In this document: positions 1-16,499 of the stretch, piece by piece
Position numbering within the stretch: position 1 is the stretch's first letter
Layout of the letters: each line of letters begins with the position of its first letter
Assembly: GCA_030066755.1 (NCBI GenBank)
Contig: JASJAX010000006.1
Location: 10,583 to 74,582, forward strand
Direction: 5' to 3'
From: Acidimicrobiia bacterium
GTDB lineage: Bacteria; Actinomycetota; Acidimicrobiia; Spongiisociales; UBA5794
DNA: 64,000 nucleotides
Notes under the pieces: model-generated
Told to the model about the DNA's origin: nothing
The model's database searches: none
The model's input: only the letters and a program-made list of their open reading frames with translations
Translations under genes and position numbers: made by a program

Positions 1-134
1 TGATGCTCACGTTCTTCAACGGCGTCACGCTGCTGATCATCTCGATGTTGGGTGAGTATCTGGTGCGCCTTCTCAATCAGTCCAGCCAGACGTACGGGTA
101 TCACATCCGCACCATCGTTGGCGGCGATGGCTGA
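1..134 (+). CDS. glycosyltransferase family 2, C-terminal fragment (5' end outside window)
   Basis: Frame 3 reads ...FFNGVTLLIISMLGEYLVRLLNQSSQTYGYH...* The hydrophobic tail with a GEYLxR motif is typical of GtrB/DPM1-like GT2 enzymes. The stop TGA at 132-134 overlaps the next ATG (ATGGCTGA). Confidence 0.45.
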   Translation, partial: MLTFFNGVTLLIISMLGEYLVRLLNQSSQTYGYHIRTIVGGDG

Positions 135-903
135 ACACTTCTTCGTCGTCGGGGCCCAACGTTCCGGCACGACCTACCTGCACCGCGTTCTCGACGAGCA
201 CCCCGGGATCGCAATGGCTCGGCCGGTCTGGCCGGAGCCGAAGTTCTTCTTCGACGACGATCAGTACCGGCGGGGTCTCGACTGGTACGAGCAGGAGTAC
301 TTCGGACACGCCGAGCCCGGGCAGCTGCGCGGCGAGAAGAGCGTCGGCTACTTGGAGTCGACGGTTGCCGCCGACCGGATCGCGGCGTCGATCCCGAATG
401 CATCGATCCTCGCCATTCTGCGGAACCCGGTCGATCGGGCCGTGTCCAACTACCGGTTCTCGTCCGACAACGGCCTCGAAACTCTGTCGGTCGAGGAGGC
501 GCTCACGTGCGACGAGGACGCTCGAGTGGTTCAGGACGGTGAGTGGTTCCTGGTCGGCGAACGCCGGATCGGCGCCAACCCGTTCGCATACCGGAAGCGG
601 GGTCGGTACGTCGATGATCTCCAGCGATACGTCGAACGTTTCGGTCGGGAGCGACTGCACGTGATGGTCTTCGAGGAGACGGTCGGATCCGGCGATGCCA
701 TCGCCCAGCTCTACAGCTTCCTCGGACTCGATGCCGGATTCGTGCCGCCGACGCTGAACGCGGTCGTCAACGCCGCCGACGGGGCTCACGACCCGCTGAG
801 CCCGTCGTTGCGGCATGACCTCGAGGCGTACTTCGCCCCCTGGAACGCTGCGCTTTCGGAGGCGTTCAACCTCGATCTCACGGCTTGGGCGCCGGGCGGC
901 TGA
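127..903 (+). CDS. sulfotransferase family protein
   Basis: N-terminus MAEHFFVVGAQRSGTTYL matches the PAPS 5'-phosphosulfate-binding loop (xxRSGTT). Length is about 258 aa. It is coupled to the upstream GT2 gene by an 8-nt overlap. Confidence 0.75.
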   Translation: MAEHFFVVGAQRSGTTYLHRVLDEHPGIAMARPVWPEPKFFFDDDQYRRGLDWYEQEYFGHAEPGQLRGEKSVGYLESTVAADRIAASIPNASILAILRNPVDRAVSNYRFSSDNGLETLSVEEALTCDEDARVVQDGEWFLVGERRIGANPFAYRKRGRYVDDLQRYVERFGRERLHVMVFEETVGSGDAIAQLYSFLGLDAGFVPPTLNAVVNAADGAHDPLSPSLRHDLEAYFAPWNAALSEAFNLDLTAWAPGG

Positions 904-2152
904 TAGCCGACACCGACGTGCCCGAGGACGGCCGCAGCAGCATTGCCGCCATGGCCGCGACCGCGACCAACTCGGCCCCGACGAAGGCCGCCACGACGCG
1001 GGTGATCTCGGTGCCGGGCCAGACGATGAGTTGGACCAGCCCGACAACGAGCCCGATCACCCACGATCCCTGAATGGCTCGGGTCCTGCCCTGCGCGAGC
1101 AGGATCAGGATCAGGCCGAGCCCGCCCAATGCCACGGTGCTTCCCGCCGCGATGGTGGCAACGACGGTCGCCTCACTCGGCGTCGCCGGAGCGAACACGA
1201 CGTCGATCACCCACGGCCCCAGCGCATAGCCGACGACTCCGGCAACGACCGCAACCGCAGCGGTGGCCGCGCTGATGATCGTGGCGACACGTCGCAGACC
1301 GGCCGAGTCGTCGGCGACGACCATCGCGGTCAACGGAGCGGTGAGACGCGTCGCAACCCCCAACGCAAGGAGATACGGGGCACGAAACAGCGCCAGGCTC
1401 AGGAACAGCGCCGTGACGGCCTCCTCAGCGCCCCCAATCGCCTGGAGCACCACGGGTCCCGCGTTGAGAATGACCTGGGCGATGAGGATGCCTCCGGCGA
1501 GGCCACCGAGGAACGCAAAGACGGGTTGACGGACTCCGCTCCGAATGGGAAGACGCAGCGTTTCCGGCCAGAAGACGGCGACGAGCGGCCCCAAGGCCAG
1601 GGTCGCCGCGAACCACAGAACTGAATCGACGGTGACGGCGACCACGATCCCGGCACCAAGGCGAAGCAGGTTCTCCGCAGCGATATTCGCTGCGGTTGCG
1701 TAGTACCGCTCGAGACCCGACAGCACACCCCGTTGCAGACCTGCGAAAGCGGATCCGACCGTGATCAGGAAGACCAGGAGCGGCCAGCCGACGCCGGTGG
1801 ATCCGAAGAGGCGATCCGACGCCAGCCACGCCCCTCCGGCCAAGAGCACGGCCGCTCCGACCACGACCGCAGCGAGCCGGGGCACGGCACCGCCGACGCC
1901 GCTGGTCGATCCGTCGATCGCGATGCGGCGGATCGCCCAGTGCTGCAGCGGGAACATGAACAACGCCACGGAGATCGCCCAGAAGGTCCACAGCACGGCG
2001 ACGGGCGCCATCTCGACCTCGCCGTACGTCCGCGTCCCGATCGCGATGTAGAGGTACGCCGCGATGCCGTTCACGGCCGTGCCGACCGCAATGGCACCCG
2101 ACTCGGCGAGGGGCCGGATTCGCGAGTCGGCTCGGGACGGACGGTCGGACAT
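878..2152 (-). CDS. polysaccharide biosynthesis / oligosaccharide flippase-like membrane protein (MOP/Wzx-like)
   Basis: About 425 aa with 10-12 predicted TM helices, rich in Ala/Gly/Leu/Val. The start ATG (MSDRPSRAD...) is followed by hydrophobic helices. The 3' end overlaps the convergent sulfotransferase gene by about 26 nt. Confidence 0.55.
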   Translation of the reverse strand: MSDRPSRADSRIRPLAESGAIAVGTAVNGIAAYLYIAIGTRTYGEVEMAPVAVLWTFWAISVALFMFPLQHWAIRRIAIDGSTSGVGGAVPRLAAVVVGAAVLLAGGAWLASDRLFGSTGVGWPLLVFLITVGSAFAGLQRGVLSGLERYYATAANIAAENLLRLGAGIVVAVTVDSVLWFAATLALGPLVAVFWPETLRLPIRSGVRQPVFAFLGGLAGGILIAQVILNAGPVVLQAIGGAEEAVTALFLSLALFRAPYLLALGVATRLTAPLTAMVVADDSAGLRRVATIISAATAAVAVVAGVVGYALGPWVIDVVFAPATPSEATVVATIAAGSTVALGGLGLILILLAQGRTRAIQGSWVIGLVVGLVQLIVWPGTEITRVVAAFVGAELVAVAAMAAMLLRPSSGTSVSAISRPAPKP

Positions 2153-2239
2153 GCCTGCGAGTGTACGAGCGAACGACCCGGCGACACGGACCAGAGGGCC
2201 CCTCCGGGCGCAGCGGTAGAGTGCCTCGAGTCGAGTCGG

Positions 2240-3022
2240 GTGGTGGAAGTGACGTTCGAGGAAACCGTGGCGGCGTATCGGTCGACCCTGGGTCAGCTCG
2301 GACTCGACGACCCGGGGCAGGTTCCTGCCGAGGCTGCGGTTGAGTCGGTGCGCGATTGGTCGCTCTTCGGCGATCTCGAGGACGTTCGCGCCTGGTTCCT
2401 CGGCCAGCGCTCGGCGAACCCGATGACTGTCACACGGATCCCGGTCGACCAATGCCGCGGTTGGGAAGTCGAGGAGGGCACGGGCTATCTCCGGCACGAG
2501 TCGGGGGAGTTCTTCGTTGTCGAGACGATCGAGGTTTCCATGTCGGAGAGCCGCGAGGTCGGTGCCGCCGGATGGTGCCAGCCGGTCATGACCCAGGTTG
2601 GCGACGATGGAGGCATCCTCGGGCTGCCCCGACGACGATTCGACGGGATCCCGCATTACCTCGTGCAGGCCAAGGCAGAGCCCGGCAACTACGAATTGGT
2701 ATCGCTCAGCCCGGCCGTGCAAGCGACGTTCAGCAACCTTCGACGGGCTCACGGCGGGCGACTTCCCACGTTTGCCGGCTGGTTCTACCCCGAGGTGGCC
2801 GATGGCTGCGAAGTCGTGGCGCAGGCCTGGCTGTCGGAAGATGGCGGCCGGCTGTTCAACAAGCGGAATCTCGGCATCGTGGTCGAACTCCCGCCGGACG
2901 AACCGATCGAGCTGCCGGACGGGTTCCGCTGGCTGTCGATGTGGCAGATCAAACAGCTCTTCCGAGAAGATGCCTGGGTGAACCCACACCTCTTCCGGCT
3001 GATCTCCATGGTGGGCGCCTGA
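2240..3022 (+). CDS. NDP-hexose 2,3-dehydratase family protein (single domain, half-size)
   Basis: The motif HYLVQAKAEPGNYELVSLSPAVQATFSNL matches the hallmark hFLvQAkvEPGN..elaPTVQ.T.SN of the EvaA/TylX3 hexose 2,3-dehydratase domain. Only one domain is present (about 260 aa). Three GTG codons at 2240, 2243 and 2249 are candidate starts, so the start is uncertain. The upstream part of the long ORF (1733-2239) is low-complexity Arg/Asp-rich and is antisense to the flippase gene. Confidence 0.6.
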   Translation: MVEVTFEETVAAYRSTLGQLGLDDPGQVPAEAAVESVRDWSLFGDLEDVRAWFLGQRSANPMTVTRIPVDQCRGWEVEEGTGYLRHESGEFFVVETIEVSMSESREVGAAGWCQPVMTQVGDDGGILGLPRRRFDGIPHYLVQAKAEPGNYELVSLSPAVQATFSNLRRAHGGRLPTFAGWFYPEVADGCEVVAQAWLSEDGGRLFNKRNLGIVVELPPDEPIELPDGFRWLSMWQIKQLFREDAWVNPHLFRLISMVGA

Positions 3023-3996
3023 TGGCTCCCGAACCGTTGCGTTTGGCCCTCGTCGGCCTCGGCCGCCATGCATTGAAGACGGTCCTCCCTGCGGTGGCGG
3101 CCGCCGAGGGTTGGTCGTTGGCGGCCGTGGTGTCGTCACGGCCCGAGGCGGCCTCCGAGATCGGATCGGAGCATGGTGTGGCCTATTTCACGGATCTCGA
3201 CGACGCACTCGAATCCGAGCGGCCCGATGCCGTCTACGTGGCGACCACCCCGGCCGATCACCTCGCACCGTGCGCCACCGCGTTGGACGCCGGGGTCCCG
3301 GTGGTGATCTGTGAGAAGCCGCTGGCGGTACTCGGTGACGATGCGAACCGACTCATCGCTGCGGCCCGTGGGGCGTCGAGCGTGCTTGTCGAAGTGATGG
3401 CCTACCAACACCATCCCCAGTTCCGGGCCGTCGAGGAACTGATCGGTAGTGACGAGGTCGGCGATCTCGTTCACGGGTACGCCCGGTTCTCCTTTCCGCA
3501 TCTCGGTGCCGACGACTTTCGCTACCGCGCCGCTGCCGGTGGCGGAGCACTTCTCGACGCCGGCGTGTACCCGCTGTCGATGGCCGTCCGCCTGCTGGGT
3601 TCGGCCGAGGTCGAGGTGAACGGGTCGGTCTTCCAGGGGGGCGGAGAGGTCGATATCGCCGGAACGGCGACGCTCACCGACGGTGCCGGTCGGTCCTTCC
3701 AATGCTCCTGGGGCATGGGATCTGCCTACGCCAACCTCGCTCGACTGGTCGGCACGGCCGGCACGATCGAGGTCGCTCGGCCGTTCTCGAAGCCGCCGTC
3801 TTTCGACGAACCACTGACGCTCATCGACGGCTGGGGCGGCCGCACCGAACGCCCCTACGCGGCAACCGACCAGTTCGCCGCCATGCTGGACGACATTGCA
3901 CGGCATCGACACGATGCTGCCTGGGTCGAGACGACGCATCGTGAGACGGAGGCACGGTGGGCGGTCATCGACGCGGTGCGCCGGTCTGCCGGTTGA
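3022..3996 (+). CDS. Gfo/Idh/MocA family oxidoreductase (NDP-sugar 3-ketoreductase-like)
   Basis: N-terminal Rossmann motif LALVGLGRHALKTVLPAV, and an EKPLA motif. The start ATG overlaps the upstream stop (TGATG). In deoxysugar pathways a Gfo/Idh/MocA 3-ketoreductase normally follows the 2,3-dehydratase. Confidence 0.75.
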   Translation: MAPEPLRLALVGLGRHALKTVLPAVAAAEGWSLAAVVSSRPEAASEIGSEHGVAYFTDLDDALESERPDAVYVATTPADHLAPCATALDAGVPVVICEKPLAVLGDDANRLIAAARGASSVLVEVMAYQHHPQFRAVEELIGSDEVGDLVHGYARFSFPHLGADDFRYRAAAGGGALLDAGVYPLSMAVRLLGSAEVEVNGSVFQGGGEVDIAGTATLTDGAGRSFQCSWGMGSAYANLARLVGTAGTIEVARPFSKPPSFDEPLTLIDGWGGRTERPYAATDQFAAMLDDIARHRHDAAWVETTHRETEARWAVIDAVRRSAG

Positions 3997-4014
3997 TCGG
4001 TCGCCTACCGCGAG

Positions 4015-5154
4015 TCAGTCGGACAGCCAGTCGACGATGACGGCGGCGACACGATCGGCATCTCCTGCGGTCATCCCGGTGTGGATGGGCAGGCGCAGCA
4101 CGCACTCCGCCCAACGATCGGTCTCCGGCAAGTCTCGTGAGTATCCGTGCGCCTCGCCGTAGGGCGACGAGTGCAGCGGCACGTAGCCGATGTACGCGTC
4201 GATCGCAGCGGACTTGAGGGTGATGCGGAGATCCTCAGCCGACTCCGGGCTCGCCAGCCGCACGTAGAACGCGTGGTGGTTGTTGCGGGCATCGGGACGC
4301 CACCGTTGGGTGAACAGTCCGGCGTCTTCACGGCCGAAGAGCATCGCCGCATATCGGTCCCACAACTCGCGCCGATGGGCGACGACTTCGTCGTAGTCCT
4401 CCAATCCGGCCAGCAGCAACGCCGCCTGCAGCTCCGTCGACTGGAAGCTCGATCCGACTTCGACCCATGAGTACTTGTCGACCAGGCCGCGCAACATCGC
4501 CTGCCGATTTGTGCCCCGTTCCCAGATGTAGGTAGTCCGATCGGCCAGCTCCGGATCGTTGATGTACAGGGCGCCGCCCATGGAGCTGTGGATGTTCTTG
4601 GTGAAATGAAACGACACCGCCGCCAGCGTTCCGAACGTCCCGGCATGACGATCCCCGATCGTCGATCCCAACGACTGGGCTGCGTCCTCGACGACCCAGA
4701 CGCCACGGTCCTCCGCCCATTCGGTGATGGCGTCGACCTCTCCGGGATTGCCGGCGTAGTGAACGGGGACCACCACGGCGTTCGCTGGTGCGTCCGTTGC
4801 GACGAACTCCGCCAGCCCGGGGCTCATCGTCTGCGGGTCGACGTCGATGAACTGGACGTCGTAGCCGGCTCTGATGAAGGCGTTCGCCGTCGAGGAGAAC
4901 GTATACGAGGGCATGAAGACCTGGTCTGCCCCGTGCACGGCTTGCAACACCATGGCCGCCATCTCGAGGGCCGCCGTCGCCGAGTGGGTGATCAACACCC
5001 GGCCGGCCCCGGTCATCGCCTCGAGCGTCTCGGCACAGCGTTGCGTGAACCGACCGTTGACATTCTGGTTGGCGTCGAGTGCCTCGAGGACGTAGCCCGG
5101 CGCGGCCGCCGGCGTATGGGCGACGTGGAATCGGATCGGATGTGACGCCGCCAT
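4015..5154 (-). CDS. DegT/DnrJ/EryC1/StrS family sugar aminotransferase (PLP-dependent)
   Basis: Typical family layout: RFTQRCAETLEAMTG..., a SxHxxK-like lysine region (VSFHFTKNI), and a length of 380 aa. Confidence 0.8.
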   Translation of the reverse strand: MAASHPIRFHVAHTPAAAPGYVLEALDANQNVNGRFTQRCAETLEAMTGAGRVLITHSATAALEMAAMVLQAVHGADQVFMPSYTFSSTANAFIRAGYDVQFIDVDPQTMSPGLAEFVATDAPANAVVVPVHYAGNPGEVDAITEWAEDRGVWVVEDAAQSLGSTIGDRHAGTFGTLAAVSFHFTKNIHSSMGGALYINDPELADRTTYIWERGTNRQAMLRGLVDKYSWVEVGSSFQSTELQAALLLAGLEDYDEVVAHRRELWDRYAAMLFGREDAGLFTQRWRPDARNNHHAFYVRLASPESAEDLRITLKSAAIDAYIGYVPLHSSPYGEAHGYSRDLPETDRWAECVLRLPIHTGMTAGDADRVAAVIVDWLSD

Positions 5155-5343
5155 TGTGTTCCCAGGCTCGATTCCCGGCGGCATCCGCCGGCGGGTTTTG
5201 CGCAGGATACCGACTCGACTTGAGGGCACCAGCTGCTGGATCTCGTTGCTGCGGCTGCCGCGATAATGGCGCTCGCAATCTCGGTGGTGGATCACGTCGA
5301 ACGTTTGGGGGGTCCAGCCGCCATGGTGCGGAGACACTGGAAA

Positions 5344-7004
5344 TGAGCACAGACACGGCGCGACCACGGTTCACCCCTGAGCCGCGTCCGCCGTACCCCC
5401 GGTTCCGCTTCGAACGGTCGGTAGTTGCGCTCGTGGTCGTCGTCGGCGCCGTGATTGTTGCGATCTGGAGCCGGAACGTCTGGTTCTACAGCGACGTGTG
5501 GGACTTCCTCGCCTTGCGTCGCGTCACCGACGTCGAGAGCATCCTTCGACCGCACTTCGGCCATTGGCAGGTACCGGCCGCGCTGCAGACCCGTTTGCTG
5601 TACGCCATTGCGGGCATGGAGTTCTGGCCCGTTCACTATCTGCCCCGGGCGATCGCGTGGGGCGGCATGTCCGTGTTCTCCTGGTGGGTCATGCGAAGAA
5701 GGGGTGCGCACCCGGCGGCCGCCCTCGGTGCAGTCGCCGTGATCACGGTCTTTGCCGGCAGTTACTACTTCCAGGCCGCCCACATCGGTGCGCTACTGGC
5801 GATCGCATCCGCGATCGGTGCCGCCATGATCATCGATGCCCGCCCTGAGCCTGCCCGGCGCGATCTCCTGGCGGTCTATGCACTCATGCAGCTCGCGGTC
5901 ATGTCGGCCGGTATCGGTGTGTCGTCGCTTCTCGGCATGGGTCTCGGGTTGCTGATCGTGCGCCGGTTGGGTCGTTGGTTCTGGCCGCTGTTTGCCGCAG
6001 GTGCCAGCTATGCAATCTGGTTTCTCGCGTTCGACGTGCTGAACGAGAGTGCCGCTCAGGCCGCCAGAACGCCGCTCGAGGTGCCGGGCGCAGTCGTCGT
6101 CAACGTCCGGAACCTCCTGGTCAACATCACCGGCCTCCCCAGCTTGCTGGGGTGGCCACTCTTCGTGCTGGCCGTCGGTGCAGGGGTTTGGCTGATAGCG
6201 AAACGCCGGCTCTCGGTCTTCGACGTCGTGCTCCTGGCGAGCGCCTTCGTCTACCTCGTGCTGGTGTCGCGGACACGAGCCAACGTGGAACGCGGCGCCG
6301 TGGCGACCAATGTGGCGCTGTTGCTCGCGCCCTTCATCGTGTCCCACATCGTGTTGATCAAACGGCGGGTGGTGGTCGCAGTCGGAGTGCTGTTCGCAGC
6401 GCTCGTGGTGTCGCACGGAGTTCGGCTCGAGGCCGATATCGACGAGCGGGTCGCCACCATCAACGAGAGTCGAGCAACCGTTGAGTCGATGGCAGCGCTC
6501 ATCGATCGGGGCGACGCCTACGTGCCGGAGCTCAAACTCACCGACCTGACGTCGAGCTCTCAGCTGACGCTGGCTGGAGTCGATCGGCTCGTGCGGGAAG
6601 GTTGGGATCCCGGCCCGCCCGTCGAGGAGTCGTCGGCGTTGGTTCGACTGCGCGTCTCGCTGTTCTCCGAGCCGGCCGCATGGGAATCCACGATCGAAGC
6701 CGTCGCCGGCAAGCACCGCCGCGACGGCTGCATCATTGCCTTCGACGGCGAGCCGGTTGCCGTCAGCATCGATGGCTCGGCGCAACTCGAGATTCGCGCC
6801 GACATGAAGACGAGTGTCATCGTGGACTGGATCGATGGGGACTCGATCGGAACCACGACGTTGACAAAGATCCGCCGTCAGTTCCGCGAGATCTATGTGG
6901 GGAGTCCGGATGGTCTCGCCACCGTCTGGTTCACACCGGTCGAGCCCGTTGGGAAGATCCTGCTCTGCGGGGTCGAGTGGCCCGGCAAACCCAATCGGGG
7001 CTGA
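5344..7004 (+). CDS. polytopic membrane protein with C-terminal soluble domain (possible glycan polymerase / GT-C-like)
   Basis: Starts MSTDTARPRF.... About 10 TM helices are predicted over the first ~400 aa, followed by a ~150 aa hydrophilic tail. It sits in the glycan locus. Its function is inferred from context only. Confidence 0.45.
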
Positions 7005-7022
7005 TCGAGCGCCCCGATCGGC

Positions 7023-7877
7023 TCACCGATCCCGGAGGAAGTCCTCGATTTCGGTGACGAGCTCGTTGCTGAATCGTGGGTCAAGGGTCGGAGAAGGCGT
7101 ATCCGGCGCTTCATCCTCGAGCTCGGTGATGTAGTCGGAGAGCTCGCCGGAATCGGCAAGGGCGGCCTCGACACGTTCGTCGAACTCGTTCGTGATCGCT
7201 TCGAGCTCACTTCGGTCGATGGCAAAATCCGCAACGGTCGCAGCCCGGTCGAGCAGCGCCAGCATCGCCTTCGGATTGGGGTTGGCGGCGAGGTAGTGCG
7301 GCGTCGCCGCCCACAGGCTCACGGCGGGCAGCCCAGCCTCGCGACAGGCCTCCTGGAGTACGCCGATGATGCCGGTCGGGCCCTCGTACGACGTCGGCGC
7401 CAGGCCATGGTCGAACAGGAGGTCCGGGTTGGTCCCGCCGCCGACGATGGGCACCGGCCGGCGGTGGGGAACCTGCCCGATGAACGCTCCGAGCAGGAGC
7501 ACCTCTTCGACGTCGCTCTCGTTGAGCACCTGGGTGATCTGACGGGCGAAGGTCTTCCAGCGAAAGCTCGGCTCCTCGCCGAGGACGACGACCAGGTCGC
7601 GCGACTCGTCCGGGAGGGTCACTGCGTGGAATCGGGTTGTCGGCCATACGAGACGGCGGGTGCCACCATCGGTGATCTCGACGGTCGGGCGATGCTCCTG
7701 GAAGTCGAAGAACTCCTCGGGATCGATGACGGCATACGGCTCCTCGGAGTCGCTCTGACCGAGCAGATAGGTCAAGGCCCCGGTGGCCGCTTCACACGCA
7801 TCGTTCCAACCCTCGAAGGCGATGAGGGCCCGTGGGCGGCGCAGTGATGGGCGGTGAAACCGCCGTATGGGGTCCAT
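7023..7877 (-). CDS. PAC2 family protein (proteasome assembly chaperone 2-like)
   Basis: The N-terminus MDPIRRFHRPSLRRPRALIAFEGWNDACEAATGA matches the actinobacterial PAC2 signature (aFeGWnDAg). Length is about 284 aa. Confidence 0.6.
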   Translation of the reverse strand: MDPIRRFHRPSLRRPRALIAFEGWNDACEAATGALTYLLGQSDSEEPYAVIDPEEFFDFQEHRPTVEITDGGTRRLVWPTTRFHAVTLPDESRDLVVVLGEEPSFRWKTFARQITQVLNESDVEEVLLLGAFIGQVPHRRPVPIVGGGTNPDLLFDHGLAPTSYEGPTGIIGVLQEACREAGLPAVSLWAATPHYLAANPNPKAMLALLDRAATVADFAIDRSELEAITNEFDERVEAALADSGELSDYITELEDEAPDTPSPTLDPRFSNELVTEIEDFLRDR

Positions 7878-7931
7878 GTACTCAGGGTACAGCGGTTGTG
7901 GAGTCCGGTTCTCGGATTCGGCTAAGCCAGG

Positions 7932-8001
7932 CGCCAGTCGCCAGTCGCCAGTCGCCAGCGAGCGCAGCGGCGATCTGACGTCTGAGGTCTGACGTCTGAC
8001 G
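7932..8001. repeat. tandem heptamer repeats (CGCCAGT)x4 and (TCTGACG)x4 in divergent PAC2/hyhB intergenic region
   Basis: Direct reading: cgccagt cgccagt cgccagt cgccagc ... tctgacg tctgagg tctgacg tctgacg. Confidence 0.8.
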
Positions 8002-8104
8002 TCTCCCTGATCTGATCGACGGACTCCGCGGTTGCTGACGAAGGCCCCTATGTCGGGTGTGGGTGCGATCCGTACCTTGGCGGTGGAACGCAGAAGGAGC
8101 CGGT

Positions 8105-9253
8105 GTGCCAGAGACCCTTGTCCTCGACCGGTCGGGATTGGCGTCGATTCTCTCCGAATTGCGCGCTCGCGACTATCTCCTGGTCGGTCCCACGATTCAG
8201 CAGGAGGCGATCGGCTACGGCCCGATCGATTCTCTTGACGACCTTCCACAAGGCTGGACGAACGTCCAATCGCCTGGTGCGTCTCACCTCGAACGACGCG
8301 ACGACGAGCGTCTGTTCGGGTACGTGGTGGGGCCGCACTCGTGGAAGAAGTACCTGATGCCCAACGAGGTGGTGATCTGGAGAGGGGAGCGCACCGACAC
8401 GGGGTTCGAGACGGTTCCGCCGGAGCCGGCTCCGGCCTATGCGCTGTTCGGCGTCCGTCCGTGTGAAGTGGCCGCGATCGCGGTCCAGGACGCCGTCTTC
8501 ATGCCGACCGACCGTGTCTACCGCGAGCGGCGGGAAGCGGCCTTCATCGTCGCCGTGAACTGCACGCAGGCAGGAGCGAATTGCTTCTGCACCTCGATGG
8601 GAACGGGTCCCGCCGTCGGCGAGGACGCGGTCTTCGACATCGCGTTCACCGAAGTCGACCGCAACGGAACCCTCGCCTATCTCGTCGAGGCGGGCTCCGA
8701 CGACGGGGCAGCCGTGCTGCAAACCGTCGTTGGGGCCGAGCCGGCGAGCGATGCAGATCTCGCGATGCTCGAGTCGGTCCTCCAGGAGGCGGCCGCCTCG
8801 GTGACCAAGACGATGGACACCGATGGCATCCACGACCTGATGCTGGCCAATCTGCGCAATGGCTATTGGGAGGACGTCGGCGGACGCTGCCTGGCGTGCA
8901 CGAACTGCACGATGGTGTGCCCGACCTGCTTCTGCAATACGGTCGAGGACACGATGACGCTCGACGGAACGACCGCCGAGCGAACACGCAAGTGGGACTC
9001 GTGCTTCTCGATCGACTTCTCGTACATCCACGGCGGTCCGCTGCGGATGACTCCCGAAGCCCGGTATCGGCAATGGCTGACCCACAAGCTGGCCACCTGG
9101 TTCGACCAGTACGGGACGTCCGGGTGCGTCGGGTGCGGGCGATGTATCACCTGGTGTCCCGTCGGCATCGACCTGACCGCTGAAGTCGCTGCACTTCGGC
9201 GGGTGGATGCACGACAAGGCCTGTCGGTTCCCCTCCCGGAGGTGATGGCATGA
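8105..9253 (+). CDS. hyhB: [NiFe]-hydrogenase group 3b beta subunit (sulfhydrogenase HydB / AsrA-like Fe-S protein)
   Basis: Multiple Cys clusters (CEVAAI..., CTQAGANCFC, CLACTNCTMVCPTCFC, CVGCGRCITWCP). The GTG start is preceded by the SD GAAGGAG at 8093-8099. It is followed by gamma, small and large subunit genes. Confidence 0.8.
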   Translation: MPETLVLDRSGLASILSELRARDYLLVGPTIQQEAIGYGPIDSLDDLPQGWTNVQSPGASHLERRDDERLFGYVVGPHSWKKYLMPNEVVIWRGERTDTGFETVPPEPAPAYALFGVRPCEVAAIAVQDAVFMPTDRVYRERREAAFIVAVNCTQAGANCFCTSMGTGPAVGEDAVFDIAFTEVDRNGTLAYLVEAGSDDGAAVLQTVVGAEPASDADLAMLESVLQEAAASVTKTMDTDGIHDLMLANLRNGYWEDVGGRCLACTNCTMVCPTCFCNTVEDTMTLDGTTAERTRKWDSCFSIDFSYIHGGPLRMTPEARYRQWLTHKLATWFDQYGTSGCVGCGRCITWCPVGIDLTAEVAALRRVDARQGLSVPLPEVMA

Positions 9254-9714
9254 CCACGACCCTCGACCAAGTCCTGGGCGCCCAGGCGTTCTTCGCCGGT
9301 CTCGACGACGAGCACCTGGCGACGCTGGCGTCCGTTGCCGAACCGGTCAGTGTGGCGATCGGGAGGAAGGTCTTCCACGAAGGCGACGTCGCCGACGCCT
9401 GCTACCTGCTGCTCGAGGGCGATGTTGCACTCGAGATGGACATCCCCGGCCGTGGGCCGCATGTCCTCCAGACACTCCATGCGGGCGACATGCTCGGATG
9501 GTCGTGGCTCGTGTCTCCGTTCCGGTACGCATACGACGCCCAAGCTCTCACCGAGGTCAAGGCCATTCGGTTCGATGCGGTCGCGCTTCGCTCCGCAAAG
9601 GACACCGACAAGGTCTTCGGCTACGAACTGATGCAGCGTTTCGCAGAAGTGCTGGTACGGCGGATGCAAGCGGCTCGTCTCCAACTCCTGGATGTCTATG
9701 GCAACGCTCACTGA
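9250..9714 (+). CDS. cyclic nucleotide-binding domain protein
   Basis: 154 aa. The cNMP-binding fold pattern is FFAGLDDEHLATLA...GRKVFHEGDVADACYLLLEGDVAL...LHAGDMLGWSWL. The SD GGAGG lies at 9238-9242. The ATG overlaps the hyhB stop (ATGA). The 3' end overlaps the hyhG start by about 23 nt. Confidence 0.75.
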   Translation: MTTTLDQVLGAQAFFAGLDDEHLATLASVAEPVSVAIGRKVFHEGDVADACYLLLEGDVALEMDIPGRGPHVLQTLHAGDMLGWSWLVSPFRYAYDAQALTEVKAIRFDAVALRSAKDTDKVFGYELMQRFAEVLVRRMQAARLQLLDVYGNAH

Positions 9715-10546
9715 ACTCACACCAAAGCTCGCCCCGATGGAGCCGGTGCCCTTCGTGGTCCGGAGCATCCGCGACGAGCTATCAGACACCTTCACCCTCG
9801 AGCTCGATCCGCCCGATGGCGTGTTCGAGTTCCTCCCCGGCCAGTTCACGATGCTGTACGTGTTCGGTATCGGCGAGGTCCCGATCTCCGTATCCGGTGA
9901 TCCGGCGCAGCCGTCGACGCTCGTACAGACGATCCGTGGGGTCGGCGCCGTCACCTACGCCCTCCGCCAGGTGCGGCCCGGTGACGTCGTTGGCGTCCGC
10001 GGCCCGTTCGGTACCGAGTGGCCGCTGGCCGAGGCGGACGGACACGACATCGTCTTCGTTGCCGGTGGCATCGGGCTCGCTCCGCTCCGTCCGGCGATCT
10101 ACTCGGTGCTGGCCAACCGGCAGCGCTACGGGAAAGTCGTGCTCCTCTACGGCGCTCGTAGCCCGAGCGACATGCTCTTCACCCAGGAGCTCCTCGAATG
10201 GGGAGGCCGGTACGACGTCGACGTGTTGATCACTGTTGACAACGCAGACCGGCAGTGGCGCGGGGCGGTCGGGGTGGTCACGAAGCTCGTACGGCGGGCC
10301 CCGTTCGATCCGCATGACACTGTTGCGATGGTCTGCGGGCCAGAGGTGATGATGCGATTCAGCGCCCAGGAGCTCGAAGGCCGCGGGGTCCCCCAGCATC
10401 GGATCCACCTGTCGATGGAGCGCAACATGAAGTGCGGCATCGGCCTGTGCGGCCATTGTCAGTTTGGAGGTCGGTTCGTCTGTTGGCAGGGCCCGGTGTT
10501 CTCCTACGACGAACTCGCTCCGTTGCTCTTGGTGAAGGAGGTGTGA
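9692..10546 (+). CDS. hyhG: [NiFe]-hydrogenase group 3b gamma subunit (FAD/NAD(P)-binding, 2Fe-2S; HydG/AsrB-like)
   Basis: Collinear with Pyrococcus HydG. Matching segments are [34 protein letters not shown] and the C-terminal [15 protein letters not shown] cluster motif. An alternative start lies at about 9737. Confidence 0.85.
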
Positions 10547-10547
10547 G

Positions 10548-11362
10548 GTGGCACACGCCGCTGCGGTAGCAACCAAGCCCAAACTGGCCGTGTACAAGTT
10601 CGCCTCGTGCGATGGATGCCAGCTGAGTCTGCTCGACGCCGAGGATGCGCTGCTGGACGTCGCCGGCGCCGTGCACATCGCCAACTTCCTCGAGGCATCG
10701 CGCGAGGTCGTGCCGGGCCCTTACGACGTCAGCCTCGTCGAAGGCTCGATCACGACACCGCACGATGCCGAACGGATCAAGCAGGTGAGGGCGGAATCGA
10801 AGTTCCTCGTCGTCATCGGAGCGTGCGCAACGGCCGGTGGGATTCAGGCGCTGCGAAACTGGAAGGACGTCGATTCGTTCACATCGATCGTCTACGCCAA
10901 CCCGCAGTACATCGAAACCCTCCAGACGTCGACGCCGATCTCGTATCACGTCCCGGTCGACTTCGAGCTGCGCGGCTGCCCGATCAGCAAGGAACAGCTG
11001 ATCGAGGTCGTTGCGGCTTTCCTGCAAGGTCGGCGACCGAACATCCCGACCTACAGCGTCTGCGTCGAATGTAAGGCCCGGGGCACGGCCTGCGTGATGG
11101 TGGGGGCAGGGACACCCTGTCTCGGTCCGGTGACGCAGGCAGGCTGCGGAGCGCTGTGTCCCGCCTACGACCGCGGCTGCTACGGGTGCTTCGGTCCCAT
11201 GGAGAGCCCCAACACGGAGGCGTTGGAGATGTGGTGGCGGGAACTCGGCGTCTCGGACCGCGACATCGTGGATGCGTTCCGGAGCTTCAATGCCTGGGCC
11301 GAACCGTTCCGCGAGGCATCTGATCGGGTCGAAGCCCGCCTCACCGTCACGGGGGTGACCGA

Positions 11363-11366
<4 letters not shown>
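10548..11366 (+). CDS. hyhS: [NiFe]-hydrogenase small subunit (delta)
   Basis: [26 protein letters not shown] and [11 protein letters not shown] are the proximal/medial cluster Cys motifs of small subunits. The GTG start is preceded by the SD AAGGAGGTG. Confidence 0.85.
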
Positions 11367-12658
<1,292 letters not shown>

Positions 12659-12662
12659 TTGG

Positions 12663-13172
12663 GTGTGTGATGGGGAACACCGGGGTGTCGTGATCGGGAT
12701 CGGGAACCGATTCCGGAGCGACGACAGCATCGGGCTACAGGTGCTCGATGCCGTGACACCCCGGCTCCCGTCATGCGTCGATGCCCTCGAGAGCAATGGT
12801 GATGCCATCGCTCTCGTGTCGAGCTTCGAACATGCGAGCTTGGCCGTCCTCATCGACGCCGTCCGCAGCGGAGGCAAGCCGGGGACGATCTACCGATTCG
12901 ACGGGAGCACCCGTCTCCCGACGAAGTTCTTCCGTGCGGCGTCGAGCCACGTGCTCGGTCTGAGCGAAGCGTTGGAGCTTGCCCGAGCGCTCGATCGCCT
13001 CCCGCACAAGATCGCCGTGGTTGGCATCGAAGCGGGCGACGTCGCTCACGGCGAGGAACTGTCGCCGGAAGCCGCGGCCGCGTTGCCTCGTGCCGCCGAT
13101 CTCGTTGTCCGACTGATGGATTCACTTCACCCGATGGAGGTGACGACCGAAGAAGAGGTGCGACATGCATGA
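12663..13172 (+). CDS. hydrogenase maturation endopeptidase (HycI/HoxW/HybD family)
   Basis: VVIGIGNRFRSDDSIGLQV matches the GxGNxxxxDDGxG protease motif. It lies immediately downstream of the large subunit gene. Confidence 0.7.
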   Translation: MCDGEHRGVVIGIGNRFRSDDSIGLQVLDAVTPRLPSCVDALESNGDAIALVSSFEHASLAVLIDAVRSGGKPGTIYRFDGSTRLPTKFFRAASSHVLGLSEALELARALDRLPHKIAVVGIEAGDVAHGEELSPEAAAALPRAADLVVRLMDSLHPMEVTTEEEVRHA

Positions 13173-13437
13173 GCGTTCGGTAGCGACATCACTGGTTCAG
13201 CAAGCAGCGGAAATCGTCTTGCGCGCAGGTTCGGATCGTGCAGTCTCCGTTGGCGTTCGCTTCGGCGGCACCTGCGGATTGAGTGAACCTCACCTCCGTT
13301 CATCGTTCGCAGCGGCCGCTGAGGGCACCCCGATCGAGGATGCGCTCCTCGAGGTCTCGTTCTCCGAAGAGACGATCAACAGCGAGGGTGTTGACGTGAT
13401 CCTGACGCACGTGGAGCTCGCCGACCCCCCGGAGTGA
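13165..13437 (+). CDS. HypA-like N-terminal domain protein lacking zinc-finger cysteines
   Basis: Starts MHERSVATSLVQQAAEIV, which resembles the HypA MHE Ni-binding N-terminus. It is 90 aa and has no CxxC...CxxC motif. It overlaps the protease gene by 8 nt. Confidence 0.4.
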   Translation: MHERSVATSLVQQAAEIVLRAGSDRAVSVGVRFGGTCGLSEPHLRSSFAAAAEGTPIEDALLEVSFSEETINSEGVDVILTHVELADPPE

Positions 13438-13477
13438 CGGCCGGGAACCCGGCAGCCGAACCGACCGTCGTAGTTGC

Positions 13478-14341
13478 ATGAACTACCGCATGCTCCTCTC
13501 AACTGCCCTCGCCGCCGTCATCGTGGTTGCCGCTTGCGGCGACACCAGTGACGATGCCTCGCCATCGTCGACCGACTCGACCAGCCCGACCACCGCGCCC
13601 TCGGGAGGAGCGACCTCGAGCGATCTCGTCGGAACCCGGTGGATCGTCGATGGACTCACGATCGGTGGCGCCGACTATTCCCTCGTCCCCGACGCCGACC
13701 CGACGATCGAGTTCTCAGCCGACCAGCCCACCATTGGAGGCACGACGGGCTGCAACAGCTACTTCGCCGAGGTCGAGTACCTCGCAGGCGGTGAGTTGCG
13801 CATCGGTGGCGTTGGACAGACCGAAATGGCCTGCTTCCCGCAGGAGGTCATGGACCAGGAAGCCCAGTTTGGGCTGGCGATCTCGCAGGTCGAGTTCTAT
13901 GAGCTCGACGGCGACCGGCTCACCCTCGCCAGCCTCGACGGATCGGTCATCATCTCAGCGGTGAACCGGGACAGCGTCGTGATGCCCGTCGAACTCGGCG
14001 GTGTCACCTGGATCGCCGATACCCGCATCGAACGAGATGCCGCTTCGACCCTCGTCGGTGGCAACGACGTCACCCTGACCTTCGACATGGCGCGAGGCAA
14101 CATCGGAGGCAACTCGGGCTGCAACCAGTTCGGCGCAACCTTTGTGATCGACGACGACCGGATTCGTGTCGCCGATCTCGTGGGTACCGAGATCGCCTGC
14201 GAGGAGCCCGTGATGGAACAGCAACGCTTCCTCTACGACGTCCTCTTGAACGCCGACACGTTCAACATCGACGACCGGCGGTTGACGATCCTCACCGCCG
14301 ACGGCCGCGGCATCAGCCTGGTGGCATCCGACACGGAATAA
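13478..14341 (+). CDS. lipoprotein with tandem META (HslJ-like) domains
   Basis: Signal peptide plus lipobox (VVAAC), a Ser/Thr-rich linker, and two repeats each containing GTRW/GVTW and GCNSY/GCNQF motifs. Confidence 0.6.
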   Translation: MNYRMLLSTALAAVIVVAACGDTSDDASPSSTDSTSPTTAPSGGATSSDLVGTRWIVDGLTIGGADYSLVPDADPTIEFSADQPTIGGTTGCNSYFAEVEYLAGGELRIGGVGQTEMACFPQEVMDQEAQFGLAISQVEFYELDGDRLTLASLDGSVIISAVNRDSVVMPVELGGVTWIADTRIERDAASTLVGGNDVTLTFDMARGNIGGNSGCNQFGATFVIDDDRIRVADLVGTEIACEEPVMEQQRFLYDVLLNADTFNIDDRRLTILTADGRGISLVASDTE

Positions 14342-14342
14342 C

Positions 14343-14377
14343 CAGTCGTCAGTCGTCAGTCGTCAGTCGTCAGTCGT
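14343..14377. repeat. tandem heptamer (CAGTCGT)x5 filling the convergent intergenic gap
   Basis: The whole 35-nt spacer between the lipoprotein stop and the flavodoxin stop is this repeat. Confidence 0.85.
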
Positions 14378-14862: not shown

Positions 14863-15006
14863 GAGCGTCCCCCGGGTCGTGTTGATCGAGCGGATTCGTA
14901 CCCGCCATCAGCCTGCGACCGACCGGCGAGCGGTTCCATGGGTCAAACTGCCCGACTTTCGGGACGGGCGTCTCGCCATGGCCGTGGGGGTGGCAGAATC
15001 CACGCC

Positions 15007-15558: not shown

Positions 15559-15567
15559 GTCGGGTCG

Positions 15568-15609
15568 CAGGTCTCAGGTCTCAGGTCTCAGGTCTCAGCC
15601 CTCAGGTCC
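15568..15609. repeat. tandem heptamer (CAGGTCT)x4 plus 2 degenerate units
   Basis: cag gtctcag gtctcag gtctcag gtctcag ccctcag gtccc, between convergent genes. Confidence 0.85.
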
Positions 15610-15619
15610 CTTGGGAGTC

Positions 15620-16471: not shown

Positions 16472-16499
16472 CCGCTCCGGTCGGCCAGAATGGCCGACG

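What the first reader, a model, noticed from the sequence alone, without database searches (positions are those of the whole stretch)
1..7004. Deoxy-aminosugar glycan locus containing a sulfotransferase
The block combines a GT2 enzyme, a PAPS-type sulfotransferase (coupled to the GT2 stop by an 8-nt overlap), a flippase-like protein, a 2,3-dehydratase, a Gfo/Idh/MocA 3-ketoreductase-like enzyme and a DegT aminotransferase. Together they specify a 2,6-dideoxy or 3-amino-dideoxy sugar pathway, linked to sulfation. That points to a sulfated, aminosugar-containing cell-surface glycan or glycolipid, which is rare in Actinobacteria. The sulfotransferase and flippase genes overlap convergently by about 26 nt.
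Basis: inference. Interest (0 to 1): 0.55.

Follow-up and report, generated by a model that had tools for sequence, protein, structure and literature searches.

The report
Sulfotransferase-coupled lipid-carrier aminosugar glycosylation cassette
This is a compact gene cassette that most likely builds a rare 2-deoxy-4-amino sugar, sulfates it, loads it on a membrane lipid carrier and attaches it to the cell envelope. Its core gene pair, a lipid-carrier glycosyltransferase fused in translation to a sulfotransferase, turns out to be widespread but undescribed in bacteria.

Summary

Three corrections:
- The "2,3-dehydratase" is a half-size, single-domain form that keeps both EvaA catalytic glutamates.
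- The aminotransferase is WecE-like, so it acts at C4, not C3.

The GT2 is ArnC/GtrB-like, and the "flippase-like" protein has a WzxE-like MOP fold.

The locus is therefore not a polysaccharide or antibiotic cluster. It is an Arn/Gtr-style lipid-carrier system for decorating the envelope with a single sugar. The predicted route starts from dTDP-4-amino-2,4,6-trideoxyhexose, which is sulfated, loaded on polyprenyl phosphate, flipped, and transferred by the GT-C enzyme to an unknown envelope acceptor.

Relatives in Acidimicrobiia keep the whole cassette and add rmlB-rmlA, which this window lacks.

The GT2-sulfotransferase pair occurs in at least 269 species genomes from many phyla. GT2 lies directly upstream in 78 of the 80 loci examined, and its stop overlaps the sulfotransferase start in 71 of 77. 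A GT-C gene, a MOP flippase or a DegT gene often lies nearby. I found no literature on this pairing.

The chemistry is inferred, not shown.

The parts
1..134 (+). 3' end (43 codons plus stop) of an ArnC/GtrB-like GT2, a polyprenyl-phosphate glycosyltransferase. The full gene is 324 aa on L001:5380-6354.
   Evidence: Translation ...GEYLVRLLNQSSQTYGYHIRTIVGGDG*. The full-length orthologue matches NCBIfam ArnC at 1.2e-60 (profile positions 8-313 of 316). Best PDB matches are ArnC 9bhc at 178 bits over the full length, then GtrB 5eke at 121 bits. It has two C-terminal TM segments.
127..903 (+). PAPS-type carbohydrate sulfotransferase, 258 aa, soluble. Its start overlaps the GT2 stop by 8 nt.
   Evidence: Pfam Sulfotransfer_3 and Sulfotransfer_1. 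PDB matches are 3rnl, HS NDST1 and HS 3-OSTs. The 5'-PSB motif GAQRSGTT and the 3'-PB motif RxPxxRAxS are invariant across 40 family members. No TM segment.
878..2152 (-). Divergent Wzx-like MOP-superfamily flippase, 424 aa, about 11-12 TM segments. It converges on the sulfotransferase gene with a 26-nt overlap.
   Evidence: The protein itself has no Pfam hit. Of 40 relatives, 8 match PF01943 (best 2.8e-8), and JGI names relatives 'O-antigen/teichoic acid export membrane protein'. The AF2 model has pLDDT 92, and the best Foldseek PDB hits are WzxE (TM 0.62-0.68), then MATE and MurJ.
2153..2239 (.). 87-bp divergent intergenic region between the flippase gene and the dehydratase operon. It is the presumed promoter region.
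   Evidence: Gene models. No promoter was tested.
2240..3022 (+). Single-domain (half-size) NDP-hexose 2,3-dehydratase, 260 aa.
   Evidence: One Hexose_dehydrat domain at 6.9e-52. It aligns to both halves of EvaA 4j7g, better to the N-terminal half (131 vs 91 bits). EvaA E139 and E190 correspond to E147 and E200 (PMC8987622). Both are invariant in 17 single-domain homologues. About 13-17 of the top 150 representative clusters are also single-domain.
3022..3996 (+). Gfo/Idh/MocA sugar 3-ketoreductase (KijD10-like), 324 aa. Its start overlaps the dehydratase stop by 1 nt.
   Evidence: Best PDB match is KijD10 'sugar 3-ketoreductase' 3rbv at 1.1e-34 over the full length. The next family scores 2e-21. 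The EKP lysine and GVYP tyrosine are conserved in the alignment.
4015..5154 (-). WecE-like dTDP-4-keto-6-deoxyhexose C4 aminotransferase, 379 aa.
   Evidence: NCBIfam NF008687 (dTDP-4-amino-4,6-dideoxygalactose transaminase) scores 357.5 bits against a cut-off of 375. PDB scores: WecE 4piw 242 bits, ArnB 121, DesV 98, QdtB 75.
5155..5342 (.). 188-bp divergent intergenic region. In relatives (L003, L004, L010) an rmlB-rmlA pair sits here.
   Evidence: tblastn finds no RmlA or RmlB anywhere in the 64-kb window.
5343..7004 (+). GT-C-fold membrane glycosyltransferase of a sequence family with no match in Pfam or NCBIfam, 553 aa. It has about 9-11 TM segments plus a C-terminal beta-rich extracytoplasmic domain.

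Best explanation
The interval 1-7004, plus the start of the GT2 gene just outside the window, is one self-contained cassette. It decorates an envelope component with a single modified sugar delivered on a polyprenyl-phosphate carrier. This is the logic of the Arn (L-Ara4N) and Gtr three-component systems.

Proposed steps; all chemistry is inferred from family membership.
1. dTDP-4-keto-6-deoxyglucose is supplied by rmlA/rmlB encoded elsewhere in this genome. The single-domain 2,3-dehydratase dehydrates it at C2/C3, probably acting as a homodimer that mimics the EvaA pseudo-dimer.
2. The KijD10-like enzyme reduces the C3 keto group, giving dTDP-4-keto-2,6-dideoxyhexose.
3. The WecE-like enzyme transaminates C4, giving dTDP-4-amino-2,4,6-trideoxyhexose.
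4. The cytoplasmic PAPS-dependent sulfotransferase sulfates this sugar, either on the nucleotide or just after transfer to the lipid. On such a sugar only O-3 and N-4 are free.
5. The ArnC-like GT2, translationally coupled to the sulfotransferase, puts the sugar on polyprenyl phosphate.
6. The Wzx-like MOP protein flips the lipid-linked sugar.
7. The GT-C enzyme transfers it to an unidentified extracytoplasmic acceptor, such as a wall glycopolymer, lipoglycan or protein.

Shown here: gene identities, protein folds, conserved catalytic residues, and conserved gene linkage. Not shown: any substrate, product or acceptor.
For: - Each enzyme's closest characterised relative fits the proposed step: EvaA with both catalytic Glu residues conserved; KijD10; WecE; ArnC; WzxE fold; GT-C fold.
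- The sulfotransferase keeps invariant PAPS-binding motifs and a Glu aligned to the E-x-H-F-F segment of HS 3-OSTs.
- The whole cassette is syntenic in Acidimicrobiia/Actinomycetota relatives at 50-65% sulfotransferase identity. There rmlB-rmlA sits inside it, which ties it to dTDP-sugar chemistry.
- In 78 of 80 loci from many phyla an ArnC-like GT2 lies directly upstream of the sulfotransferase; the other 2 contigs are truncated. Its stop overlaps the sulfotransferase start in 71 of 77 loci, and the overlap is exactly 8 nt in 37.
- DegT lies within 10 kb in 44 of 80 loci.
- Compact versions also hold a GT-C gene. The Planctomycetota locus L006 reads GT2-sulfoT-DegT-methyltransferase with a convergent PMT_2 gene. 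Nocardioides koreensis L077 reads GT-C-GT2-sulfoT-DegT-methyltransferase with a convergent Wzx-like gene.
- No Wzy, phosphoglycosyltransferase, PKS/NRPS or GT1 gene is present in the cassette or beside it.
Against: - There is no biochemical evidence for any step.
- rmlA and rmlB are absent from the 64-kb window, so precursor supply is assumed.
- The aminotransferase scores just under the NCBIfam equivalog cut-off (357.5 vs 375), and its substrate would be a 2-deoxy analogue of WecE's.
- No single-domain 2,3-dehydratase appears to have been characterised (none in the PDB hit list or the paper search). EvaA's active pocket may need both domains.
- Known Und-P-monosaccharide systems use small GtrA or ArnE/F flippases, not MOP proteins. 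WzxE flips Und-PP-oligosaccharide.
- The GT-C model rests on 7 sequences (pLDDT 66), and the loop carrying the candidate catalytic Asp residues is poorly modelled.
- 36 of 80 loci show no DegT within 10 kb, so the sulfotransferase family is not strictly tied to amino sugars.
- The sulfotransferase could act on something other than the carried sugar.
Confidence: 0.6

Rival explanations
1. This is the first reader's picture: a Wzx/Wzy-type locus for a sulfated, aminosugar-containing surface polysaccharide or glycolipid built from Und-PP-linked repeat units.
For: The flippase model is closest to WzxE, which flips an Und-PP-trisaccharide. WecE also belongs to that ECA pathway. Sulfotransferases do occur in actinomycete Wzx/Wzy clusters (PMC13390465).
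Against: The cassette and its flanks hold no initiating phosphoglycosyltransferase, Wzy polymerase, chain-length regulator or second cytoplasmic glycosyltransferase. The only cytoplasmic GT is ArnC/GtrB-like with two C-terminal TM helices, which is the polyprenyl-monophosphate type. A GT-C transferase is conserved with it.
Confidence: 0.1
2. The sugar is a 3-amino-2,3,6-trideoxyhexose. The DegT enzyme aminates C3 of the 3,4-diketo intermediate, as EvaB does, and the Gfo/Idh/MocA enzyme reduces C4.
For: 2,3-Dehydratases often feed C3 aminotransferases in natural-product pathways (established knowledge of the epivancosamine and daunosamine routes). The cassette has no separate SDR 4-ketoreductase.
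Against: The aminotransferase is far closer to the C4 enzyme WecE (242 bits) than to the C3 enzymes DesV (98) and QdtB (75). The NCBIfam families above 130 bits are all C4 enzymes. The reductase's closest characterised relative is the C3-ketoreductase KijD10, with catalytic Lys and Tyr conserved. The C3-reduction then C4-amination route needs no further enzyme.
Confidence: 0.1
3. The sulfotransferase does not sulfate the carried sugar. It modifies the acceptor, a lipid or another metabolite, or it has a non-catalytic or regulatory role bound to the GT2.
For: No substrate is known. 36 of 80 loci lack a nearby DegT and their neighbouring sugar genes vary. That fits an enzyme recognising something common, such as the GT2 or the polyprenyl carrier.
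Against: PAPS is cytoplasmic and the protein is soluble with no signal sequence, so an extracytoplasmic acceptor is out of reach. The PAPS motifs and catalytic Glu are invariant. Near-universal translational coupling to the GT2 points to consecutive steps on one substrate.
Confidence: 0.15
4. This is a tailoring sub-cluster for a glycosylated, sulfated secondary metabolite such as an antibiotic deoxysugar.
For: The characterised 2,3-dehydratases come from antibiotic pathways (PMC8987622), as does KijD10 (established knowledge). Sulfated sugars occur in saccharomicin (PMC13291958).
Against: No PKS, NRPS, GT1-family transferase or resistance gene is adjacent. The neighbours are an ECF sigma factor, a PAC2 gene and a NiFe hydrogenase operon. 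The cassette always travels with a membrane GT2, a flippase and a GT-C transferase.
Confidence: 0.05

Closest known systems
Arn pathway for L-Ara4N modification of lipid A (ArnB, ArnA, ArnC, ArnD, ArnE/F, ArnT)
   Different: The sugar is a dTDP-2,6-dideoxyhexose, not UDP-L-Ara4N. There is no ArnA formyltransferase/decarboxylase and no ArnD deformylase; a PAPS sulfotransferase stands in that position. The flippase is a 424-aa MOP protein, not ArnE/F. The GT-C belongs to a different sequence family with no PMT_2 hit. The host is probably a monoderm actinobacterium without lipid A (inference).
Three-component transmembrane glycosylation systems (GtrA/GtrB/Gtr*, CsbB/GtcA/YfhO, mycobacterial PpgS/Rv3789/Rv3779)
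   Same: GT-A-fold membrane GT2, a flippase and a GT-C transferase decorate wall polymers with single sugars (described in PMC13390465). GtrB 5eke is the second-best PDB match for the GT2. PpgS gives a weak hit.
   Different: These systems use GtrA-type small flippases and include no sulfotransferase. Their sugars are common ones (Glc, GlcNAc, GalNAc) taken from the general pool, not made by a dedicated deoxy-aminosugar pathway.
EvaA/KijD10-type 2-deoxygenation pair of natural-product deoxysugar pathways
   Same: Same two families in the same order, with overlapping genes. Catalytic residues are conserved.
   Different: The dehydratase has one Nudix-like domain (260 aa) instead of two (about 470 aa). 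The context is envelope glycosylation, not a natural-product cluster.
WecE and WzxE of enterobacterial common antigen synthesis
   Same: These are the best solved relatives of the aminotransferase (242 bits) and of the flippase model.
   Different: ECA is built on Und-PP as a trisaccharide repeat with WecA, WecF, WzyE and WzzE, none of which is present here. Fuc4N is N-acetylated by WecD, whereas this cassette has no acetyltransferase.
Heparan sulfate sulfotransferases (NDST1 N-sulfotransferase domain, 3-OSTs) and the uncharacterised bacterial protein 3rnl
   Same: Same fold family, with PAPS 5'-PSB and 3'-PB motifs and an aligned catalytic Glu segment.
   Different: The protein is bacterial, cytoplasmic and 258 aa. 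Its substrate is presumably a monosaccharide on a nucleotide or lipid carrier, not a polymer. Whether it sulfates N or O is unknown.

Membership tests
Arn (L-Ara4N) lipid A modification pathway | ArnC-type undecaprenyl-phosphate aminosugar transferase | tested here: met
   The GT2 orthologue (L001) matches NCBIfam ArnC at 1.2e-60 over profile positions 8-313 of 316, though its 205 bits fall below the 529-bit equivalog cut-off. PDB ArnC 9bhc scores 178 bits over the full length. It is ArnC-like, not an ArnC equivalog.
Arn (L-Ara4N) lipid A modification pathway | ArnA (UDP-GlcA decarboxylase/formyltransferase) and ArnD deformylase | tested here: not met
   No such genes occur among the seven cassette genes or their flanks.
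Arn (L-Ara4N) lipid A modification pathway | ArnT GT-C transferase acting on lipid A | tested here: inconclusive
Three-component Gtr-type glycosylation system | GtrB-like GT2 plus GT-C transferase in one locus | tested here: met
   The linkage is conserved.
Three-component Gtr-type glycosylation system | GtrA-family small flippase (3-4 TM helices) | tested here: not met
   The only candidate flippase is a 424-aa MOP-fold protein.
NDP-hexose 2,3-dehydratase (EvaA family, PF03559) | Hexose_dehydrat domain above the Pfam threshold | tested here: met
   176 bits against a cut-off of 25.
NDP-hexose 2,3-dehydratase (EvaA family, PF03559) | Two tandem Nudix-like domains in one chain (pockets A and B) | tested here: not met
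   260 aa with one domain. The protein aligns to each EvaA half separately. A single-domain clade exists.
NDP-hexose 2,3-dehydratase (EvaA family, PF03559) | Catalytic glutamates equivalent to EvaA E139 and E190 | tested here: met
   E147 and E200 align to them and are invariant in 17 single-domain sequences. The residue roles come from PMC8987622.
KijD10-type sugar C3-ketoreductase (Gfo/Idh/MocA) | Closest characterised relative, with conserved EKP Lys and GVYP Tyr | tested here: met
   3rbv at 1.1e-34 over the full length. Both residues are conserved in the alignment. Activity was not tested.
WecE (dTDP-4-amino-4,6-dideoxygalactose transaminase) | Score above the NCBIfam equivalog cut-off | tested here: not met
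   357.5 bits against a cut-off of 375. This is a near miss: the protein belongs to the WecE subfamily but is not an equivalog, which fits a different (2-deoxy) substrate.
PAPS-dependent sulfotransferase (Sulfotransfer_1/3) | Pfam domain plus 5'-PSB and 3'-PB PAPS-binding motifs | tested here: met
   61 and 51 bits against cut-offs of 27 and 22. GAQRSGTT and RxPxxRAxS are invariant in 40 sequences.
PAPS-dependent sulfotransferase (Sulfotransfer_1/3) | Sulfuryl transfer to a defined acceptor atom (N or O) | not testable with these tools
   The nearest solved relatives include both an N-sulfotransferase (NDST1) and O-sulfotransferases (3-OSTs), with equal scores.
Wzx (MOP superfamily) flippase | MOP fold; Polysacc_synt sequence family | tested here: met
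   Fold: WzxE is the best match, followed by MATE and MurJ. Sequence: the query has no Pfham-level hit of its own, but 8 of 40 relatives match PF01943.
Wzx/Wzy-dependent polysaccharide locus | Initiating phosphoglycosyltransferase, Wzy polymerase and chain-length regulator | tested here: not met
   None is present in the cassette or its flanks.

The most novel reading that the evidence does not exclude
The sulfotransferase N-sulfates the C4 amine of the dTDP- or polyprenyl-P-linked aminosugar. It would play the part that N-formylation by ArnA plays in the Arn pathway, masking the amine so that the ArnC-like enzyme and the flippase can handle the sugar. The GT2-sulfotransferase pair would then define a large, unrecognised class of bacterial systems that put sulfated (sulfamate or sulfate-ester) sugars on cell envelopes in more than ten phyla. 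MOP-type flippases would have been recruited to move the charged lipid-linked sugar.
Probability: 0.2. Interest if true: 0.8.

Novelty: new variant of a known kind. Interest (0 to 1): 0.6.

Why it matters
Sulfated glycoconjugates are regarded as rare in bacteria. A 2026 paper states that bacterial sulfated polysaccharides are known only from cyanobacteria (PMC13390465).

Here a sulfotransferase is translationally coupled to an ArnC-like lipid-carrier glycosyltransferase in at least 269 species genomes. These include Chloroflexota, Planctomycetota, Actinomycetota, Acidobacteriota, candidate phyla and Proteobacteria.

If the inferred chemistry is right, sulfated single-sugar decorations of cell envelopes are widespread and unstudied. 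Such decorations would affect surface charge, phage and antibiotic interactions, and marine or soil sulfur cycling.

The cassette also offers three enzymes worth characterising:
- a single-domain 2,3-dehydratase resembling the pre-duplication ancestor of EvaA;
- a GT-C family with no match in Pfam or NCBIfam;
- a monosaccharide sulfotransferase.

A cultured strain, Nocardioides koreensis JCM 16022, carries a compact version, which makes the question directly testable.

Tried and rejected
- Direct Pfam and NCBIfam scans of the two membrane proteins gave nothing, so I turned to homologue sets and structure prediction.
- Iterative HMM searches among locus ORFs did not join the 553-aa family to PMT_2 (0 shared hits). 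The GT-C assignment therefore rests on fold only.
- The word-based homologue search found only 6 relatives of the 553-aa protein, which gave a shallow alignment and a mediocre model (pLDDT 66).
- The AlphaFold-database fold library was unavailable.
- A motif scan and tblastn for RmlA and RmlB found none in the window.
- A crude hydropathy count of large polytopic ORFs near the pair was too coarse; it missed known orthologues. I use it only qualitatively.
- Single-linkage clustering of neighbouring ORFs merged the sulfotransferase with DegT and produced antisense shadow clusters. I did not use those counts.
- Literature searches pairing sulfotransferase with ArnC/ArnT, GtrB or polyprenyl phosphate, and a search for single-domain 2,3-dehydratases, found nothing relevant.
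- I rejected the long ORFs 878..3139 (-), 815..1624 (+), 1733..3022 (+, N-terminal part) and 2356..3996 (+, N-terminal part) as high-GC read-through artefacts: their extra stretches have no family match and are not in the gene calls on related contigs.

Full report
**1. What is in the sequence**

The window is about 65% G+C, so long spurious ORFs abound. I fixed gene models using third-position GC, family matches, start-codon inspection and independent gene calls on related contigs.

| Coordinates | Strand | Product |
|---|---|---|
| <1..134 | + | last 43 codons of a GT2 |
| 127..903 | + | sulfotransferase, 258 aa |
| 878..2152 | - | polytopic membrane protein, 424 aa |
| 2240..3022 | + | Hexose_dehydrat protein, 260 aa |
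| 3022..3996 | + | Gfo/Idh/MocA, 324 aa |
| 4015..5154 | - | DegT aminotransferase, 379 aa |
| 5343..7004 | + | polytopic membrane protein, 553 aa |

- The 26-nt convergent overlap (878..903) is also as stated.

**2. Identity of each part**

*GT2.* The full gene was recovered on MAG contigs. L001 is 97.6% identical in DNA over the shared 2.26 kb; L002 came.
- It is an ArnC/GtrB-type polyprenyl-phosphate glycosyltransferase.
- NCBIfam ArnC matches at 1.2e-60 over the whole profile.
- PDB ArnC scores 178 bits over the full length, and GtrB scores 121 bits.
- It has two C-terminal TM segments.

*Sulfotransferase.*
- It passes both Pfam sulfotransferase thresholds.
- The 5'-PSB and 3'-PB PAPS motifs are invariant in 40 family members.
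- Its solved relatives are an uncharacterised bacterial protein (3rnl), then the heparan sulfate N-sulfotransferase domain and the 3-O-sulfotransferases at equal scores.
- Its invariant PEPKFF segment aligns to the E-x-H-F-F segment of the 3-OSTs. That this segment holds the 3-OST catalytic base is my own knowledge.
- It has no TM segment and so should be cytoplasmic, where PAPS is found.

*424-aa membrane protein.*
- It has no Pfam hit of its own.
- Of 40 relatives, 8 match Polysacc_synt, and JGI labels relatives as O-antigen/teichoic acid exporters.
- A confident model (pLDDT 92) matches WzxE best, then MATE and MurJ.
- It is a MOP-superfamily, Wzx-like flippase.

*Dehydratase.*
- It has a single Hexose_dehydrat domain.
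- It aligns to both halves of the two-domain EvaA, better to the N-terminal half.
- EvaA's essential E139 and E190 (review PMC8987622) correspond to E147 and E200. Both are invariant in 17 single-domain homologues.
- In an exhaustive search of 1.84 billion representatives, 1314 proteins matched. About 13-17 of the best 150 are full-length single-domain proteins of 250-264 aa, and the rest have two domains.
- The review calls EvaA's second pocket a leftover of a gene duplication. The single-domain form therefore resembles the pre-duplication state and would have to work as a homodimer (inference).

*Gfo/Idh/MocA enzyme.* Its best solved relative by a wide margin is the sugar C3-ketoreductase KijD10 (1.1e-34, against 2e-21 for the next family). 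The EKP lysine and GVYP tyrosine are conserved.

*Aminotransferase.* It belongs to the WecE subfamily.
- NCBIfam NF008687 scores 357.5 bits, just under the 375-bit equivalog cut-off.
- PDB WecE scores 242 bits, against ArnB 121, DesV 98 and QdtB 75.

*553-aa protein.*
- It has no Pfam or NCBIfam match.
- Only six word-sharing homologues were found.
- The model is of moderate quality (pLDDT 66).
- An invariant SDVWDFL motif follows TM1, where GT-C enzymes carry their catalytic acidic residues (established knowledge). The N-terminus is positively charged, which places this loop outside the cytoplasm (inference).

**3. Comparative evidence**

- The entire cassette is syntenic in relatives whose sulfotransferase is 65% identical (L003/L008, uncultured Acidimicrobiia) and 55% identical (L004/L005, Acidimicrobiia MAG). 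A third relative, L010 (Acidimicrobiaceae), aligns at 50% by tblastn.
- In those relatives an rmlB-like and an rmlA-like gene sit between the DegT and GT-C genes. That ties the cassette to dTDP-sugar chemistry.
- This window and its near-identical MAG contig lack that pair. tblastn finds no RmlA or RmlB in the whole 64 kb, so supply from elsewhere must be assumed.
- A rearranged version, L007, adds an RmlC-like gene, a second GT-C paralogue and MBOAT/AlgX genes.

A scan of one genome per species with the sulfotransferase alignment found 269 genomes. These cover Chloroflexota, Planctomycetota, Actinomycetota, Acidobacteriota, Nitrospirota, Melainabacteria, candidate phyla and Proteobacteria. 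Among the best 80 loci:
- An ArnC-like GT2 lies directly upstream on the same strand in 78. The other two contigs end too early.
- The GT2 stop overlaps the sulfotransferase start in 71 of 77 loci. The overlap is 8 nt in 37, 11 nt in 15 and 4 nt in 10.
- DegT lies within 10 kb in 44 of 80.
- Other recurrent neighbours are methyltransferases, hexapeptide acetyltransferases, Gfo/Idh/MocA enzymes, Wzx/MurJ-like and LPG_synthase_TM membrane proteins, PMT_2 GT-C enzymes, DUF6044, and many unannotated 530-600-aa polytopic proteins.
- Compact operons state the logic plainly. Planctomycetota L006 reads GT2-sulfoT-DegT-methyltransferase with a convergent PMT_2 gene.
- The cultured Nocardioides koreensis JCM 16022 reads GT-C-GT2-sulfoT-DegT-methyltransferase with a convergent Wzx-like gene.

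**4. Most likely mechanism**

The cassette is an Arn/Gtr-style lipid-carrier glycosylation system. All steps below are inferred.
1. dTDP-4-keto-6-deoxyglucose undergoes 2,3-dehydration.
2. C3 is reduced.
3. C4 is transaminated, giving dTDP-4-amino-2,4,6-trideoxyhexose.
4. A PAPS-dependent enzyme sulfates the sugar in the cytoplasm.
5. The ArnC-like GT2 transfers it to polyprenyl phosphate.
6. The MOP flippase moves it across the membrane.
7. The GT-C enzyme transfers it to an unknown envelope acceptor.

On the predicted sugar only O-3 and N-4 are free. The sulfate must therefore be a 3-O-ester or a 4-N-sulfamate.

The parallel with Arn is suggestive but untested. There, N-formylation by ArnA precedes ArnC; here a sulfotransferase is welded to the ArnC-like gene and no acyltransferase is present. 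The absence of DegT near 36 of 80 family members argues against N-sulfation as a general rule.

**5. Rivals**

- *Wzx/Wzy polysaccharide locus.* This is unlikely. No initiating transferase, polymerase or chain-length regulator is present.
- *C3-amino route.* The identities of the aminotransferase and the reductase argue against it.
- *Natural-product tailoring.* The flanks hold an ECF sigma factor with an anti-sigma-like gene, a PAC2 gene and a NiFe hydrogenase operon. The membrane trio is also always present.
- *Sulfotransferase acting on something other than the carried sugar.* This cannot be excluded.

**6. Comparison with the known, and novelty**

The system works like Arn and Gtr systems but is a member of neither.
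- It lacks ArnA and ArnD.
- It lacks a GtrA- or ArnE/F-type flippase.
- Its GT-C belongs to a separate sequence family.

I found no paper linking a sulfotransferase with ArnC, ArnT or GtrB, and none on a single-domain 2,3-dehydratase, in the library searched. That library omits most subscription journals.

I rate it a new variant of a known kind. The conserved GT2-sulfotransferase module is the most interesting element.

**7. Limits**

- Nothing here is biochemical.
- The GT-C model is of moderate quality.
- The taxon of the window (probably Acidimicrobiia) is inferred from the nearest relatives only.
- The acceptor, the stereochemistry and the sulfation site are unknown.

Noticed in passing
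window 5155-5342, compared with L003:15182-17124 and L004:15118-17056: Relatives carry an rmlB-like and an rmlA-like gene between the DegT and GT-C genes. This window and the near-identical MAG contig L002 have only a 188-bp spacer there. No RmlA or RmlB homologue occurs anywhere in the 64 kb.
   Followed up: partly
window 8057-13172 (+): A soluble NiFe hydrogenase operon lies immediately after the cassette and a PAC2 gene. It encodes a Fer4_22 protein, an NAD-binding/DHODB Fe-S subunit, an Oxidored_q6 small subunit, a NiFeSe large subunit and a HycI maturation protease.
   Followed up: no
window 7023-8249 (-): A PAC2-family protein (Pfam 5.3e-50) converges on the GT-C gene. The ORF's first 140 or so residues lie outside the domain, so the true start is probably further in.
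   Followed up: no
L001:3397-5339 (upstream of the window): An ECF sigma factor gene is followed, with a 4-nt overlap, by a 470-aa single-TM protein with no family match. The latter is probably its anti-sigma factor, and the pair sits directly upstream of the GT2 gene. It is absent from that position in L003 and L004, so it is probably not part of the cassette. It could still regulate the cassette in this lineage.
   Followed up: partly
L007/L009 (Actinomycetota MAG32), 1600-16900: This rearranged version of the cassette has two paralogous GT-C genes of the 553-aa family (573 and 590 aa). It also has an RmlC-like epimerase and an adjacent MBOAT plus AlgX pair, which suggests O-acetylation of a polymer.
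   Followed up: no
L077:7484-13923 (Nocardioides koreensis JCM 16022): A cultured strain carries a compact six-gene version: GT-C, GT2, sulfotransferase, DegT and methyltransferase, plus a convergent Wzx-like flippase. It has no deoxygenation genes. It is a practical organism for experiments.
   Followed up: partly
L008-L087, flanks of the GT2-sulfotransferase pair: The flippase candidates next to the pair are repeatedly MOP-type (Wzx/MurJ-like) or LPG_synthase_TM proteins, not GtrA-type. Many loci also hold unannotated 530-600-aa polytopic proteins or DUF6044 proteins, which may be further unrecognised GT-C families.
   Followed up: partly
L003:19947-20774 and L006:1-459, 14253-15791: A phage-type integrase lies about 1 kb beyond the cassette in L003. 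Sulfatase genes flank the Planctomycetota version, although sulfatases are very common in that phylum, so this may be coincidence.
   Followed up: no
window 18258-20414 (-): A heavy-metal P-type ATPase (HMA, E1-E2_ATPase and Hydrolase domains). META-domain, flavodoxin and glyoxalase genes lie between it and the hydrogenase operon.
   Followed up: no
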